A DNA stretch of 18,053 nt from a virus (taxonomy: Duplodnaviria > Heunggongvirae > Uroviricota > Caudoviricetes): the IMG/VR virus record IMGVR_UViG_2563366942_000011. One strand, written 5' to 3'. Positions 8,283-13,561 of this stretch are shown one piece after another (within the stretch, counting starts at the first letter, position 1; each line of letters starts with the position of its first letter). The position numbers and the translations under genes are program-made. The notes under the pieces are model-generated. The model saw nothing but the letters and a program-made list of their open reading frames with translations, was not told the origin of the DNA and made no database searches.

Positions 8283-8415
8283 TTTTTGGGACTCCTGGCT
8301 GATTAAGTATGTCGATAAGGCGTTTCCATCCGTCACGTAATTTACGGGTGATTCGTTCAAGTAAAGATTCGGAAGGGCAGCCAGCAACAGGCCACCCTGC
8401 AATGGCATATTGCAT
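8251..8415 (-). CDS. cIII: CIII (FtsH/HflB inhibitor that stabilises CII), 54 aa
   Basis: Hand translation from ATG 8415: [54 protein letters not shown]; too short for the ORF track; overlaps kil by 32 nt as in lambda. Confidence 0.9.
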   Translation of the reverse strand: MQYAIAGWPVAGCPSESLLERITRKLRDGWKRLIDILNQPGVPKNGSNNYGYPD

Positions 8416-8487
8416 GGTGTGCTCCTTATTTATACATAACGAAAAACGCCTCGAGTGAAGCGTAATTGGTATGCGGTAACGCCGCGC

Positions 8488-9479: not shown

Positions 9480-10034
9480 ATGCATTTTTTCCTGCAAGGA
9501 ATGACACTTAAACAGTTGATTCATATGCTAATCATCCTGATCATATTGATTATTGTTATGCCGGTAAGCGTAAAAGAATGGATAAACCTGCATAATCCAG
9601 AAATCCTTCCTCATTACTGGATGTATTACATCCTGTTGTTTTGCGTTAGCTATGTGCTTAACGGCGTTGTTAATTCCGCTTATCACGCTGTGACTGAAAG
9701 AATTGAGGTATTCGCTGCTCAGAAGCGCAAATCTAAAGAAGAAAAATATGTGCAAGATTTGTTTGATTCGTTAACTCTTGGAGAAAGAGCGTATTTGGCA
9801 TTCGCTGTAGCCGCTAATAACCAGCTACAAACGGAAAAGGGCGCTCATGAATCAATTTCATTGCTCAAAAAAGGACTCCTCGTTCGAAGGCCTCCTGCTG
9901 TTGGATATCCTGATACCGACCGTTTCGTTATCCCTGAAAGCTATAGACATGAGTGCTACATTAGGTTTGCCGGGAAGGCAGACAGCCTTATGGATGAACT
10001 TATCGCTCAGGATAAGCATGGCAAAAACAAGTAA
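9480..10034 (+). CDS. sieB: Superinfection exclusion protein B (SieB-like, membrane)
   Basis: 184-aa plus-strand ORF with a hydrophobic N-terminus (LIHMLIILIILIIVMPV...), convergent with N as sieB is in lambda and Rac. Confidence 0.8.
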   Translation: MHFFLQGMTLKQLIHMLIILIILIIVMPVSVKEWINLHNPEILPHYWMYYILLFCVSYVLNGVVNSAYHAVTERIEVFAAQKRKSKEEKYVQDLFDSLTLGERAYLAFAVAANNQLQTEKGAHESISLLKKGLLVRRPPAVGYPDTDRFVIPESYRHECYIRFAGKADSLMDELIAQDKHGKNK

Positions 10035-10050
10035 TTAGCAAATGAATTTA

Positions 10051-10323
10051 TCATCTCGCCGTCAGTTGTTTTGATTTCCGGTAGCCTGCCGCGTAAAGAG
10101 CTACGTTCGGAAGACAAGTTGAACCTTCATATTTTCTGGTCAACGTTGTCAGAGTTATCACTTCTGCTCTCATTGCTGGTTTGAGCTTGCATTGCAAGAC
10201 CACTCGTGAAGGGGGTGGCCTGTGTAGCTTGTCGGAGCTGATCGCCTCCTGACTTTGCAGATTTGCGCGACGAGCTCTACGGCGAGAAGCTGCGGTGCCT
10301 TTAAATTCTGTTTTTCTGGACAT
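10051..10323 (-). CDS. N: N-family transcription antiterminator (non-lambda; C-terminus resembles P22 gp24 as recalled)
   Basis: ATG at 10323 behind a GGAGGA RBS; 90 aa beginning MSRKTEFKGTAASRRRARRANLQ (arginine-rich motif) and ending ...VALYAAGYRKSKQLTAR. The 114-aa track ORF is a 5' over-extension. Confidence 0.75.
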   Translation of the reverse strand: MSRKTEFKGTAASRRRARRANLQSQEAISSDKLHRPPPSRVVLQCKLKPAMRAEVITLTTLTRKYEGSTCLPNVALYAAGYRKSKQLTAR

Positions 10324-10421
10324 GGATTCCTCCCGAATAAACTTTGGCGATGCAATCTCGAAGCTCCTCCTGAGACGGTTGCTTCGGCATTGCATCCCAC
10401 AGCTTATGTGGTTGGGTGATC

Positions 10422-10499: not shown

Positions 10500-10560
10500 T
10501 GCTGACGGTTAAATAGTACGATATGTACTTTACAAGATCAATACAATTTGTTGTAAGTTG
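10500..10560 (-). promoter_or_regulatory. pL/oL region: candidate -35 TTGATC, -10 TACTAT and palindromic operators
   Basis: AGTAC-N5-GTACT at 10515-10529 overlapping the putative spacer and -10; ACAA-N4-TTGT at about 10543-10554. Confidence 0.4.
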
Positions 10561-10724
10561 GCGTGGTTTTTTATAACGCTTTGTATTTAATAGTGTTGTT
10601 TTTTAGCGTGGATGTATTGCCTCGGCGATGTAAGGAGAGATCAGAATTGCGTGGTTTAGTGGGTTGCATCTATTTATTTTTCAATAAATATAATTGGTTA
10701 TGTGTTTTTAGGTGGGCGAACGTG

Positions 10725-10753
10725 AGGCAAAGAAAACCCGGCGCTGAGGCCGG
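10725..10753 (-). terminator. Intrinsic terminator ending the cI / two-gene cassette transcript (t-imm analogue)
   Basis: Minus strand reads CCCGGCCTCAGCGCCGGG followed by TTTTCTTTG, just downstream of the 250-aa gene stop. Confidence 0.6.
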
Positions 10754-10759
10754 GTTGTA

Positions 10760-11512
10760 TTATGCTGCAAGTCTCTTAACCCAAGTCTCTCTTTTGGAGA
10801 ATGGTAGAACTTGGCTTGATTCATGGAAGAGTAAGGAGAGTTGTTGCATTTGATCACCAATTGCTTCGCTGTCTATAACAACAAATCTGTTGTTATACTC
10901 CTCACTTGAAGCTTTAAGATCAATTAGTTTCCCAAGCAATGAGTAAGCACTATTCCAGCTTCCTCCGTGTTTCACGCTTGATGTAAAAACGTATTTAGGT
11001 ATGTCGGTTTTTATTGTTACAGGGACGGTAATTTGATGTCCACTCAAGCCATATACGTTTTCACGAAGAGAAAGTGCGTCTCTAAGCTCTGTGTGATATA
11101 GATAATCAATAACCATACTTTCAAACTTTTCAGCTTGAACTGGCTGATACCAGTCTAACGACAAAGTTGATGCGAGTATACCAGCTCTAATTATGTTCGA
11201 TGTAATCGCACCGACATCCTTTTCTGTTGCCCAAGCAATGATTTCTCCTCGAGCATTGAGTTCTGCGCCTTCTTTAAGCAGTAATTGTCGTATCTCATCA
11301 AGTCGTTTTTTGGTAAGCGAGATCCCTCTTGCCTCCATATTCATTAAGGCATCGCATCTGTCACTAACTAAATACCTACCATTGACTTCACGGATAAAGG
11401 CACCGACATGCTCTCCATCATCACAGTAAGTGAATGGACTGATAATTCTCAAGGTCTTGCCTATTGGATGGCATTCGAAACCTAGTTGTGAGATCACTGT
11501 TGAGCACATCAT
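10760..11512 (-). CDS. Uncharacterised 250-aa protein, distal gene of a two-gene cassette at the rexAB-equivalent locus
   Basis: ATG ATG start overlaps the upstream stop (ATGA); no long hydrophobic segments; AT-rich relative to flanks; no known family recognised. Confidence 0.8.
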   Translation of the reverse strand: MMCSTVISQLGFECHPIGKTLRIISPFTYCDDGEHVGAFIREVNGRYLVSDRCDALMNMEARGISLTKKRLDEIRQLLLKEGAELNARGEIIAWATEKDVGAITSNIIRAGILASTLSLDWYQPVQAEKFESMVIDYLYHTELRDALSLRENVYGLSGHQITVPVTIKTDIPKYVFTSSVKHGGSWNSAYSLLGKLIDLKASSEEYNNRFVVIDSEAIGDQMQQLSLLFHESSQVLPFSKRETWVKRLAA

Positions 11513-12066
11513 ATTCCAAACCCCATTTGCCCCGACTCATCTTCAAGCGGTAAAGGTATTCTCCCAGAGTAAGTTATGTTCAGATGTTTACAGAAGTAAT
11601 TCCAATACCCTACCAGGTCATCTGGGTTTATGTCATCTTCGATTGGAAACGCTATTCTATCACTATAGTATCCAGCTTCTTCATAGTATACATGGTAGTG
11701 AGCACCGTAAATGATATCTTGGTACTTCGGATGATCGACCTTGTAACTATTCGTGTGTTTGTCAAAGTGATAGGTATCTACCGCGAAAACCCTCTTGTTA
11801 TGATAGAAAGCAATAATATTTATTTTAGGGTAAGAAATCGGGTCATCAGGTTCTGAATCCTGATCTGGTTTCCATTTCAGTTCAAACTTTAGCCCTTGTA
11901 TAGGTATACAATCCTCATCCAAGGGGATGATATGGGCTTGTAGCCACATATCAGAGCGACTTGGTTTCTGTTTCCATTTAACGCCAGAAAAGTTAACTAT
12001 TTTTTTACAATAAAGTACTTTATCAACTTCTACTTGGCTTGGCTGATAATCATCTATTTTTGCCAA
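11509..12066 (-). CDS. Uncharacterised 185-aa protein, proximal gene of a two-gene cassette at the rexAB-equivalent locus
   Basis: Frame opens at TTG 12066 straight after an in-frame stop, 40 nt downstream of the cI stop; aromatic/His-rich stretch DHPKYQDIIYGAHYHVYYEEAGYY; AT-rich. Confidence 0.75.
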   Translation of the reverse strand: MAKIDDYQPSQVEVDKVLYCKKIVNFSGVKWKQKPSRSDMWLQAHIIPLDEDCIPIQGLKFELKWKPDQDSEPDDPISYPKINIIAFYHNKRVFAVDTYHFDKHTNSYKVDHPKYQDIIYGAHYHVYYEEAGYYSDRIAFPIEDDINPDDLVGYWNYFCKHLNITYSGRIPLPLEDESGQMGFGI

Positions 12067-12105
12067 TGTTTACCGCCCTGTAAATTGTAGATAAAAGTGG
12101 TTTCA

Positions 12106-12765
12106 TCACCCAAACGTCTCTTCAGGCCATTGGCTGGCGATAACTTTCCCCACAACGGAACAACTCTCATTGCATGGGATCATTGGGTATTGTGGGTTTA
12201 GTGGCTGTAGAAACACCTGACCGCTATCCCTGATCAGTTTCTTGAAGGTAAATTCATCACCACCAAGTCTGGCTATGCAGAAATCGCCGGGCTCAACAGC
12301 TTGCTCAGGGTCAACCAGAATTAACATCCCGTCAGGAAAGCTGGGTTTGGAACCTGTTGGTGCGGTCATTGAGTTACCTTCAACCTCAAGCCAGAATGCA
12401 GAGTCACTGGCTTTTTTGGTTGTGCTTACCAATCTCTCCGCATCGCCTTTGGTAAAGGTTCTGAGTTCTGGAGAGAACATCCCAGCCTGAACATGAGAAA
12501 AAACAGGGTACTCATATTGTTTTTTAACTGGGGCCGATGAGTATTCGCCAACAGGTGAAAATGTCCCGTCGTGGTTGAATGATATGTTATCAATACCAAG
12601 GTATTTAAACACCACACCAATATCACTAAGAGATGGATGACGAGATCCGCGCAACCAGTGTCCAATCCCACCCTGCGTCATACCTAGCTCTTCGGCTAAC
12701 TTCTCTTGAGTTATGCCGAGCTCTTTCATTCTGGATCTAGCCAGTTCATACCATTTCATTTTCAT
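12106..12765 (-). CDS. cI: CI repressor, hybrid: non-lambda HTH (XRE-type) N-terminal domain with lambda-type C-terminal domain
   Basis: C-terminal ~135 aa ([29 protein letters not shown]...[10 protein letters not shown]) match lambda CI CTD as recalled; N-terminal [40 protein letters not shown] is a different HTH. Start chosen at the ATG with an AAGGA RBS; the track's 5' extension is probably not translated. Confidence 0.88.
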
Positions 12766-12875
12766 GTCCTTATTATTACGCTCTGTACTGGAACCATCCA
12801 TGCACAATGTGTATTTTTACTTGTATTCGCAAAGTACATATTGTATTTTTTATTCGTGTTTACTATGGAGGGCAT
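12766..12875. promoter_or_regulatory. oR region with divergent pRM/pR candidates and operator-like repeats
   Basis: 110-bp cI-cro intergenic region; AGTACATATTGTATT at 12833-12847 is a degenerate copy of the oL palindrome; additional TGTA/TACA half-sites. Confidence 0.45.
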
Positions 12876-13091
12876 ATGAGCAACCTACGAAAATATCGAG
12901 AGTCACTGAATATCTCTCAAACAACACTTGCTAAGGCAGTTGGATGCACACAGGGAGCTATCGGACATTGGGAATCTGGTCGTCGCTTCCCAGACCTTAA
13001 AACATGCCGTGCTCTTGTTGCGTGCCTAAACAAGTTAGGCGCAAAAGTCAGTCTTGATGACGTGTTCCCGCCGGAACACAAAGCCGCTTAA
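12876..13091 (+). CDS. cro: Cro-like repressor (XRE-type HTH)
   Basis: ATG at 12876 behind a GGAGGG RBS; 71 aa MSNLRKYRESLNISQTTLAKAVGCTQGAIGHWESGRR...; its recognition-helix region resembles that of cI (TQGGIGHW vs TQGAIGHW). Confidence 0.82.
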   Translation: MSNLRKYRESLNISQTTLAKAVGCTQGAIGHWESGRRFPDLKTCRALVACLNKLGAKVSLDDVFPPEHKAA

Positions 13092-13147: not shown

Positions 13148-13232
13148 GTTCCAAGATATCTGACCAACTAAGGCCATATGCGTTTCCACGCATACCTTTC
13201 AACTAACTATTCACTATTGGAAATCTTAAGAA

Positions 13233-13529
13233 ATGGAAAGAACAAGTTACAGCAAACTATCACAGCGTGACGTTGATCGCGCAGAAACAGATTTACTTAT
13301 CAATCTGTCAGCTATTACCCAGCGCGGTCTGGCAAAGATGATTGGCTGTCATGAATCGAAGATAAGCAGAACGGACTGGAGATTTATTGCTTCGGTCTTG
13401 TGTGCTTTCGGAATGGCATCAGACATCAGTCCGATTAGCAGGGCTTTTAAGTATGCGCTTGATGGACTCACCAATAAAAAACGCCCGGCGGCAACCGAGC
13501 GTTCTGAACAAATCCAGATGGAATTCTGA
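13233..13529 (+). CDS. cII: CII transcriptional activator, hybrid (non-lambda N-terminal part, lambda-identical C-terminus)
   Basis: 98-aa ORF ending ...LTNKKRPAATERSEQIQMEF, identical to the lambda CII tail as recalled; N-terminal two-thirds differ. Confidence 0.85.
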   Translation: MERTSYSKLSQRDVDRAETDLLINLSAITQRGLAKMIGCHESKISRTDWRFIASVLCAFGMASDISPISRAFKYALDGLTNKKRPAATERSEQIQMEF

Positions 13530-13551
13530 GGTCATTACTGGATCAATCCAC
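13474..13551 (-). ncRNA. oop: OOP antisense RNA (antisense to the cII 3' end)
   Basis: Plus strand AATAAAAAACGCCCGGCGGCAACCGAGCGTTCTGAACAAATCCAGATGGAATTCTGAGGTCATTACTGGATCAATCCAC is, a few substitutions aside, the reverse complement of lambda OOP RNA as recalled, including the GCCGCCGGGCG-U6 terminator. Confidence 0.7.
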
Positions 13552-13561
13552 AGGAGTCATT

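What the first reader, a model, noticed from the sequence alone, without database searches (positions are those of the whole stretch)
10725..12105. Unrecognised AT-rich two-gene cassette at the rexA-rexB position, between cI and pL
In lambda the slot between the cI stop and pL/t-imm holds rexA-rexB, an abortive-infection system expressed from the lysogen's pRM transcript. Here it holds two translationally coupled genes (185 aa then 250 aa, ATGA overlap). The first begins 40 nt after the cI stop with no terminator between, and an intrinsic terminator (10725-10753) follows the second. Neither protein looks like RexA or RexB: sizes differ and there are no transmembrane-like hydrophobic segments. 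Hand-counted 60-nt blocks in the cassette give roughly 35-47% GC, while the flanking cI C-terminal-domain block sampled is about 50% by eye, which suggests a horizontally acquired moron. Position, repressor-linked expression and foreign composition are what one expects of a prophage-encoded exclusion/defence module. I could not assign either protein to a known defence family.
Basis: partly seen in the sequence, partly recalled or inferred. Interest (0 to 1): 0.88.

Follow-up and report, generated by a model that had tools for sequence, protein, structure and literature searches.

The report
Untested two-gene defence candidate behind cI
A lambda-like E. coli prophage carries, in the slot where lambda has its rexAB exclusion genes, an unrelated and strictly paired two-gene cassette that two published computer screens already flag as a likely anti-phage defence system, but that nobody appears to have tested.

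Summary
Two overlapping minus-strand genes, A (185 aa, 11509-12066) and B (250 aa, 10760-11512), start 39 nt after the cI stop. No terminator lies between, and a strong terminator follows at 10735-10756.

Neither protein is Rex-like or membrane-bound. The cassette is the most AT-rich 1.3 kb of the window.

The window matches phages ev207, ev017 and PhiR57_1 and a prophage of E. coli Nissle 1917. Phages with the same cI carry other cargo between exactly the same two boundaries, so this is a swappable insert.

In 80 of 80 viral contigs with a B relative, an A relative sits directly upstream. In 79 of 80, a LexA-type repressor precedes the pair, and these repressors fall into 36 types.

B combines a secretion-chaperone-like domain (DUF1828) with a restriction-nuclease-fold domain (DUF1829). 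Its canonical catalytic acids are not conserved. A is a rare beta-rich protein with no structural relative and an invariant Asp/His/Asn cluster.

The pair weakly matches the untested PADLOC candidate PDC-M24. These exact proteins are listed as predicted defence genes in DefensePredictor (Science 2026) but were not among the units tested there.

Verdict: a real and credible repressor-linked defence candidate, already predicted, with no experiment and an unknown mechanism.

The parts
12106..12807 (-). cI-type repressor (HTH_3 + Peptidase_S24). It is the upstream gene of the presumed operon and is context, not cargo.
   Evidence: Pfam Peptidase_S24 E 1.3e-28 and HTH_3 E 2.1e-10. Annotated as cI or LexA-family in PhiR57_1 and ev207.
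12067..12105 (-). 39-nt spacer between the cI stop and the start of gene A. It is the right-hand junction of the swappable cargo.
   Evidence: Sequence read. No terminator-like site here. Homology to the same-cI phages 2G7b and 1717 resumes at 12104 and 12108.
11509..12066 (-). Gene A, 185 aa (RefSeq WP_001062368.1). It is a rare beta-rich protein with no structural relative and an invariant R92, D97, N106, G121, H123, H125 core. It has a conserved, low-confidence C-terminal tail ending in Ser-Gly-Gln. It uses a TTG start.
10760..11512 (-). Gene B, 250 aa (WP_000968518.1). Its N-terminal DUF1828 domain (about 1-116) has a secretion-chaperone/YbjN-like fold. Its C-terminal domain (about 129-250) has a PD-(D/E)XK restriction-endonuclease fold (DUF1829). 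Its start overlaps the stop of A (ATGA).
10735..10756 (-). Intrinsic terminator closing the cI-A-B unit. It is part of the conserved phage backbone and is shared by phages that carry other cargo.
   Evidence: Terminator scan. Fold -19.5 kcal/mol, z -2.5. Homology to 2G7b and 1717 runs up to 10756 and 10757.
10515..10529 (.). Operator-like palindrome AGTAC-N5-GTACT on the oL/pL side. One-mismatch copies lie at 12775-12789 and 12833-12847 on the oR side.
   Evidence: Pattern search: 11 matches against 3.8 expected, with the one perfect copy here. Inverted-repeat pair I1 links 10505-10531 to 12831-12857.
10051..10395 (-). N antiterminator, the first pL gene. It marks the left limit of the cI-N variable slot.
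   Evidence: Pfam N_peptide E 3.9e-32. Annotation in related phages.

Best explanation
This is a prophage-borne, two-protein anti-phage (superinfection exclusion or abortive infection) module that rides in the repressor operon.

**Shown**
- The cargo fills exactly the space between the cI stop codon and a backbone terminator.
- A and B are always adjacent and overlapping.
- The pair always sits directly behind a LexA-type phage repressor, across many immunity types.

**Inferred**
- The pair is transcribed with cI from the maintenance promoter in the lysogen, so both proteins are present before an attacking phage arrives.
- A and B form a complex. The conserved, disordered C-terminal tail of A may dock on B's chaperone-like DUF1828 domain, a fold whose known members bind extended peptides.
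- A phage cue releases or activates an effector activity directed at nucleic acid. This could be B's nuclease-fold domain, which has a non-canonical site, or the invariant Asp/His/Asn cluster of A acting as a metal centre.
- The result blocks the incoming phage or kills the infected cell.

The confidence of 0.6 is for the defence role. The mechanistic steps deserve no more than about 0.3.
For: - **Slot:** the cI-N region is a documented mosaic hotspot holding rexAB and bstA (Owen 2021, PMC8585504). Here the same-cI phages 2G7b and 1717 carry different cargo between identical junctions at 10757 and 12105.
- **Pairing and position:** 80 of 80 IMG/VR loci with a B relative have an A relative directly upstream. 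In 79 of 80, an S24 repressor precedes the pair on the same strand, with a gap of 29-442 nt. These repressors form 36 clusters at 90% identity.
- **Same picture elsewhere:** 8 prophages with six repressor lengths show it, as do 7 species-representative genomes of Enterobacterales.
- **Family links:** B matches PDC-M24B over its full length (E 4.7e-10). A and 8 of 10 of its distant relatives match only PDC-M24A models, at E 2e-4 to 0.04. PDC systems were picked because they are embedded in BREX, DISARM or type I RM loci (Payne 2024 preprint).
- **Independent prediction:** DefensePredictor Table S5 lists these exact proteins as 'Predicted novel defense gene', with log-odds 5.64 (B) and 4.90 (A) against a cutoff of 4. 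Its overall wet-lab validation rate was 45%.
- **Constraint and spread:** dN is 0.14-0.27 with saturated dS. The cassette is in 239 of 5426 complete E. coli genomes, and it is kept in the defective Nissle 1917 prophage.
Against: - No experiment on this pair or on PDC-M24 was found. It is absent from DefensePredictor's tables of tested units.
- A's link to PDC-M24A and DUF6978 is weak: it is below the Pfam cutoff and covers only residues 104-164.
- B's canonical catalytic residues are not conserved. The 'D' position is His159, and the residue two before the invariant Lys173 is Ile here and variable in orthologues. Nuclease activity is therefore not assured.
- A has no informative fold match, so its role is a guess.
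- No RNA data show co-transcription with cI. In other phages the gap to the repressor reaches 442 nt and could hold a separate promoter.
- More than half of the predicted units tested by DefensePredictor gave no phenotype.
Confidence: 0.6

Rival explanations
1. It is a toxin-antitoxin-like addiction module that stabilises the prophage. One protein is a growth-arresting effector and the other neutralises it, with no dedicated anti-phage role.
For: The unit is two small, translationally coupled genes with a nuclease-fold member. It is retained in the defective Nissle 1917 prophage, whose integrase is disrupted. The near-universal GTG or TTG start of A suggests tuned stoichiometry.
Against: No DNA-binding antitoxin-type domain and no known toxin family was detected. 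Both proteins are larger than typical type II pairs. The pair is freely swapped out in phages with the same cI without replacement by another copy. Many toxin-antitoxin modules also act in defence, so this rival overlaps with the main reading.
Confidence: 0.12
2. It is an accessory function that serves the phage itself, not the lysogen. Examples are a counter-defence, anti-restriction or DNA-processing factor used after induction or on infection.
For: It lies in the early-region neighbourhood, next to ral, gam and the recombination genes. It has a nuclease-like fold. Relatives embedded in restriction or BREX loci could in principle be modulators of those systems.
Against: It is oriented and placed to be read with the repressor, not from pL or pR. 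A backbone terminator separates it from the pL operon. The association with repressors holds in 79 of 80 loci. This is the expression logic of lysogen-expressed genes such as rexAB and bstA.
Confidence: 0.1
3. It is a lysogenic-conversion function unrelated to phages, such as host physiology, stress tolerance or colonisation fitness.
For: It is common in commensal and uropathogenic lineages, including Nissle 1917, ABU 83972 and ATCC 11775. bstA was first linked to virulence phenotypes before its defence role was found.
Against: There is no signal peptide or membrane segment and no match to a metabolic or virulence family. Both independent defence-oriented screens flag the family.
Confidence: 0.08
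4. It is a core part of the lysis-lysogeny switch, for example a modulator of repressor cleavage or an anti-repressor.
For: It has an obligate position in the repressor operon.
Against: Phages with a 98-99% identical cI, cro and operator region carry unrelated cargo instead. Conversely, one cassette type is found with several unrelated repressor types. It therefore cannot be matched to a particular immunity system.
Confidence: 0.04

Closest known systems
PADLOC phage defence candidate PDC-M24 (Payne et al. 2024 preprint, cassette CAS_00098)
   Same: Both are two adjacent co-oriented genes, with a small A followed by a B of about 250 aa. The window's B matches the PDC-M24B model end to end (E 4.7e-10). 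Its A, and most A relatives, match only PDC-M24A models.
   Different: The A match is weak (E about 5e-4) and covers only the C-terminal third. The window's A is about 35 aa longer than the model. PDC-M24 was defined from cassettes embedded in BREX, DISARM or type I RM loci, whereas this subfamily is found behind prophage repressors. PDC-M24 is itself untested.
Lambda rexA-rexB
   Same: It occupies the same slot between cI and oL/pL, in the same orientation as cI. It also has two genes, is closed by a terminator before pL, and is dispensable cargo.
   Different: There is no sequence relationship. There is no membrane protein, whereas RexB is described as an ion channel. The sizes and the order of functions differ.
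BstA of Salmonella phage BTP1 (Owen et al. 2021)
   Same: It is a lysogen-expressed abortive-infection gene located directly downstream of the prophage repressor. That synteny is conserved across diverse prophages.
   Different: BstA is a single protein with its own DNA-based self-immunity element (aba). No homology was detected, and no such element has been identified here.
DS-6 / HipAD (DefensePredictor, Science 2026)
   Same: It is a validated two-protein E. coli defence system. Its second protein carries a DUF1829 domain, the same nuclease-clan domain assigned to the C-terminal half of B.
   Different: In DS-6 the partner is a HipA-family kinase and the N-terminal domain of DS-6B is DUF3037, not DUF1828. 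Only one domain is shared.
PD-(D/E)XK nuclease effectors such as Can2/Card1 and type II restriction enzymes (PspGI, NgoMIV, Cfr10I)
   Different: Sequence identity is 7-13%. The canonical Asp and (Asp/Glu)-x-Lys residues are not conserved in the B family. There is no CARF or DNA-recognition domain.

Membership tests
Lambda RexAB | Sequence homology to RexA and RexB | tested here: not met
   No RexA or RexB model matched in Pfam or PADLOC, even at E <= 1.
Lambda RexAB | Second protein is a multi-pass membrane protein | tested here: not met
   Maximum 19-residue hydropathy is 0.45 (A) and 1.19 (B), against 3.03 for SieB.
Lambda RexAB | Located between cI and oL/pL, co-oriented with cI, with a terminator before pL | tested here: met
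   Gene map, terminator and operator-like palindrome. Related phage annotations agree.
PADLOC PDC-M24 | B component matches the PDC-M24B profile | tested here: met
   PDLC04540 E 4.7e-10, residues 2-249 on profile positions 4-254 of 256. PDLC04539 E 1.5e-7.
PADLOC PDC-M24 | A component matches the PDC-M24A profile | tested here: inconclusive
   E 4.8e-4 at 18 bits, covering residues 104-163 only. The hit is consistent: 8 of 10 distant A relatives match only PDC-M24A models, at E 2e-4 to 0.04. The related Pfam family DUF6978 scores 22 bits against a cutoff of 29.6.
PADLOC PDC-M24 | A then B, adjacent on one strand | tested here: met
   4-nt overlap here. The same order holds in 80 of 80 viral loci and 8 of 8 genome loci.
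PADLOC PDC-M24 | Found embedded in BREX, DISARM or type I RM loci (the basis of the candidate call) | tested here: not met
   All loci examined are lambdoid prophage immunity regions. The contexts of more distant relatives could not be fetched.
DUF1828/DUF1829 proteins | N-terminal DUF1828 domain | tested here: met
   Pfam PF08861 at 33.5 bits against a cutoff of 22, residues 26-110.
DUF1828/DUF1829 proteins | C-terminal DUF1829 domain (PD-(D/E)XK clan) | tested here: inconclusive
PD-(D/E)XK nucleases | alpha-beta-beta-beta-alpha-beta core fold | tested here: met
PD-(D/E)XK nucleases | Conserved catalytic Asp and (Asp/Glu)-x-Lys | tested here: not met
   The invariant residues of the domain are H159, K173, D198, R209, D214 and Q224. 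The position two before K173 is Ile here and variable in orthologues, and no invariant acid lies on strands 2 or 3. The register was inferred from secondary structure, not from a superposition.
Validated anti-phage defence system (any) | Experimental reduction of phage plating | not testable with these tools
   No report was found. The pair is absent from DefensePredictor Tables S6-S8, which list tested and validated units.

The most novel reading that the evidence does not exclude
The A-B pair may be a mechanistically new defence system. In this reading a protein with no structural relative (A, with an invariant Asp/His/Asn cluster) works with a fusion of a secretion-chaperone-like domain and a degenerate nuclease fold (B). 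The chaperone-like domain would sense a phage protein or hold A in check through A's conserved tail. If so, the pair could also be the unidentified factor behind the lambdoid-phage resistance of E. coli Nissle 1917. Bury et al. 2018 attributed part of that resistance to prophage 3, which carries this cassette, and left the rest open.
Probability: 0.25. Interest if true: 0.72.

Novelty: new variant of a known kind. Interest (0 to 1): 0.55.

Why it matters
- **A new family for a classic slot.** If the pair defends, it adds a widespread family to the repressor-linked exclusion genes (rexAB, bstA). It is in about 4% of complete E. coli genomes, including the probiotic Nissle 1917, the asymptomatic-bacteriuria strain ABU 83972 and the species type strain.
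- **An unexplained partnership.** One component has no known fold relative, so the pairing is not explained by current systems.
- **Practical relevance.** It bears on phage susceptibility of therapeutic and probiotic strains. It also bears on reading the cI-N slot as a plug-in site where promoterless cargo borrows the repressor transcript and a backbone terminator.
- **Ready for testing.** The 80-of-80 gene pairing and the exact junctions give clean constructs.

Tried and rejected
- **PDB sequence searches.** Profiles of A and B found nothing usable. The broader A profile gave an apparent E 1e-11 to designed Kelch propellers. This is an artefact of six summed weak repeat matches, each with an individual E above 38.
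- **Cupin idea for A.** The H-x-H-x3-E string suggested a cupin-like site, but no cupin appeared among the fold matches and the Glu is not invariant. I dropped this as a claim.
- **Contexts of distant A relatives.** Five attempts returned no confirmed locus in genomes, metagenomes or viral contigs. Whether pairing with B and embedding in restriction loci hold at that distance remains unseen.
- **Alternative cargo.** The proteins carried by phages 2G7b and 1717 gave no Pfam or PADLOC hits.
- **Literature.** Searches for PDC-M24, DUF6978, DUF1828, the phage names and the protein accessions found no functional study.
- **Nissle 1917 'phage repressor'.** I checked whether the clone in Bury et al. 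might have included the cassette. Its primers map to the cII-like gene instead.
- **Own promoter.** The only promoter-like hits near A overlap its start codon, and the count is below the shuffle expectation. They were not taken as evidence.

Full report
**1. What is in the sequence**

The region holds two minus-strand ORFs. Gene A runs 11509-12066 (185 aa, TTG start). Gene B runs 10760-11512 (250 aa). Their stop and start overlap by four bases, ATGA.

Upstream on the same strand is a repressor with HTH_3 and Peptidase_S24 domains (12106-12807). The gap from its stop codon to the start of A is 39 nt. The scan found no terminator-like site there.

Three bases after the B stop lies an 8-bp stem with 6 G-C pairs followed by a T-run (10756-10735). 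It folds at -19.5 kcal/mol, z = -2.5 against shuffles.

Further left come three features:
- an operator-like palindrome, AGTAC-N5-GTACT, at 10515-10529, with near-copies in the cI-cro spacer
- the N antiterminator at 10051-10395
- sieB at 9480-10034

The cassette has 39.6% GC against 46.7% for the window. That is the lowest percentile of 1.3-kb windows, and third-position GC is 34-36% against 45% in cI.

Neither protein has a membrane-like segment. Neither matches Rex models. Against orthologues, dN is 0.14-0.27 with saturated synonymous sites, so both are constrained coding genes.

**2. Where it comes from, and the shape of the slot**

Window 10500-12900 is 100% identical to Escherichia phages ev207, ev017, PhiR57_1 and PhiR63_2. 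In those records the two genes are annotated as hypothetical or DUF1828.

The cassette occurs at 99% identity or more in 239 of 5426 complete E. coli genomes. These include Nissle 1917 (a defective prophage next to icd), ABU 83972 and the type strain ATCC 11775.

Phages 2G7b and 1717 have the same cI, cro and pL region at 93-99% identity. Their homology to the window stops at 10756/10757 and resumes at 12104/12108. In between they carry other genes:
- 2G7b carries a 285-aa protein plus a 163-aa multi-pass membrane protein.
- 1717 carries a 173-aa orphan.

The exchangeable unit therefore runs exactly from the cI stop codon to the top of the terminator stem. The terminator belongs to the backbone, not to the cassette. 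This is a plug-in slot: promoterless cargo sits between a highly expressed gene and a shared terminator.

Conversely, an Stx1 phage carries the same cassette behind a different S24 repressor.

**3. How strict the arrangement is**

- **Prophages:** a 68%-identical A orthologue was traced to eight prophages. In all of them it overlaps a 250-aa DUF1828 gene, follows an S24 repressor (six different lengths) and precedes N or its equivalent.
- **Species-representative genomes:** among 185,579 genomes, the motif scan found eight loci. Seven were in Enterobacterales, and the eighth was a 518-bp contig in an Actinomadura assembly. A was followed by B in each. Where similarity to cI was not detectable, the upstream ORF still had the S24 catalytic motif.
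- **Viral contigs:** in IMG/VR, 80 of 80 loci with a B relative (50-100% identity) had an A relative directly upstream. In 79 of 80 an S24-type repressor preceded the pair on the same strand, at 29-442 nt.
- **Repressor diversity:** those repressors fall into 36 clusters at 90% identity and 20 at 60%. Single cassette types occur with up to five repressor types.

The repressor model was built from repressors found upstream of A elsewhere, so it is tuned to this class. The counts are still unambiguous.

The pair is thus an obligate two-gene unit and an obligate passenger of the repressor operon. It is not tied to any one immunity specificity, which argues against a core role in the lysis-lysogeny switch.

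**4. The proteins**

*B.* The model is confident (pLDDT 84.3) and has two domains.
- A published HHblits annotation of the identical protein assigns DUF1829, in the PD-(D/E)XK clan, to residues 155-241 at 98.8%.

The textbook catalytic residues are not conserved in B. His159 occupies the Asp position. Lys173 is invariant, but the residue two before it is Ile here and varies among orthologues. The other invariant residues of the domain are D198, R209, D214 and Q224.

Nuclease activity is possible but not assured.

The DUF1828 domain has its own invariant polar cluster: D51, D54, N58, E60, R62 and E90.

*A.* This model is also confident (pLDDT 85.9) and is mostly beta.
- It has one match to an uncharacterised viral model.
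- The family is very small: 20 representative clusters among 1.84 billion proteins.
- Across its most distant members the invariant residues are K22, W31, R92, D97, N106, G121, H123, H125, F158 and P173. H104, W155 and Q180 are nearly invariant.
- The Asp/His/Asn cluster lies on neighbouring strands and looks like a metal or catalytic site. That is an inference.
- The last dozen residues are modelled with low confidence yet end in a conserved Ser-Gly-Gln motif, as expected of a tail that orders on a partner.
- A starts with GTG or TTG in 15 of 16 loci inspected, which hints at controlled dosage.

**5. Relation to known systems**

*PADLOC.* PADLOC models match both genes to the two components of one candidate, PDC-M24.
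- B matches end to end (E 4.7e-10).
- A matches weakly (E 4.8e-4, C-terminal third only).
- The A link is consistent. Eight of ten distant A relatives hit PDC-M24A models and nothing else. Six of ten hit the related Pfam family DUF6978, all below its cutoff.

PDC systems were nominated because they are embedded within BREX, DISARM or type I restriction loci, and they are explicitly untested (Payne et al. 2024 preprint).

*DefensePredictor.* Independently, DefensePredictor (Science 2026, PMC13092281) lists these exact proteins in an ECOR-collection assembly as 'Predicted novel defense gene'.
- The log-odds are 5.64 (B) and 4.90 (A), above its cutoff of 4.
- Neither the accessions nor the contig appear in the tables of cloned, tested or validated units, and those tables were stored uncut.
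- That study validated 45% of the units it tested.
- One validated system, DS-6/HipAD, has a DUF1829 domain in its second protein, but with a kinase partner and a different N-terminal domain.

*The slot.* The slot itself is a recognised hotspot that holds rexAB in lambda and bstA in BTP1 (Owen 2021).

I found no functional study of this pair.

**6. Most likely function**

I commit to a lysogen-expressed anti-phage module at about 0.6.

*Shown:* the anatomy, the pairing, the operon position, the exchangeability, the folds, and the two candidate listings.

*Inferred:* read-through transcription from the maintenance promoter, an A-B complex with the tail of A on B's chaperone-like domain, activation by a phage cue, and a nucleic-acid-directed effector step by B's non-canonical nuclease fold or A's His/Asp site. 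The mechanistic details deserve no more than about 0.3.

*Rivals:*
- A toxin-antitoxin-like stabiliser (0.12), which overlaps with abortive infection.
- A phage-serving accessory or counter-defence function (0.10), disfavoured by the orientation and the terminator.
- A conversion trait unrelated to phages (0.08).
- A switch component (0.04), disfavoured by the swapping.

**7. Novelty and score**

The kind is known: defence cargo behind a prophage repressor.

Three things are not known: whether it defends, against what, and how. One partner has no relative of known structure or function.

I rate it a new variant of a known kind, with interest 0.55. It is a clean, well-delimited, widespread candidate in medically relevant strains, but it is neither a surprise to specialists nor backed by a phenotype.

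**8. Limits**

- The contexts of the most distant A relatives could not be retrieved.
- The AlphaFold-database fold library was unavailable.
- No expression data exist for the cassette.

Noticed in passing
window 13187-13556 (cII-like gene 13233-13529, +): The 'phage repressor pr' (EcN1917_1294) of E. coli Nissle 1917 prophage 3 was reported by Bury et al. 2018 to cut lambda and stx phage plating about 200-fold from pUC19. Their qPCR and cloning primers map to the cII-like activator gene of this same immunity region, not to cI.
   Followed up: partly
L003 (phage 2G7b) 1757-3143, the slot equivalent to window 10757-12105: A phage with the same cI carries a 285-aa soluble protein plus a 163-aa multi-pass membrane protein in the slot. 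This is a RexA/RexB-like architecture with no Pfam or PADLOC match. Phage 1717 (L005 2053-2574) carries a 173-aa orphan instead. Both are further untested candidates.
   Followed up: partly
window 12064-12066, and the gene A start in L006-L021: Gene A begins with GTG or TTG in 15 of 16 loci inspected and with ATG once. The upstream Shine-Dalgarno-like sequence is weak, and B starts with ATG overlapping the stop of A. This suggests deliberately low or coupled translation of A.
   Followed up: no
window 9480-10034 (+): A SieB superinfection-exclusion homologue (Pfam E 2.2e-22, with a strongly hydrophobic N-terminus) lies next to N. The immunity-left region therefore carries a second exclusion-type gene.
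   Followed up: no
window 8370-8428 (-): An Rfam Lambda_thermo match (cIII thermoregulator, 88.5 bits against a gathering score of 50) lies at the start of the cIII-like gene.
   Followed up: no
window 10515-10529, 12775-12789, 12833-12847: Palindromes of the form AGTAC-N5-GTACT occur as one perfect copy on the pL side and two one-mismatch copies in the cI-cro spacer. They are likely operator half-site pairs of this immunity type. Only one copy was found on the left, where three would be expected.
   Followed up: partly
L016 5549-5893 and L019 5604-5945: In the Thorsellia and Izhakiella prophages an extra ORF of about 113 aa sits between the repressor and gene A. The Thorsellia ORF looks hydrophobic from its sequence. 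The slot can therefore stack more than one cargo.
   Followed up: no
L022 (518-bp contig in an Actinomadura rugatobispora assembly): A short contig encodes the A-B junction at 64-82% identity to the E. coli proteins. In an actinomycete assembly this is most likely enterobacterial contamination.
   Followed up: no
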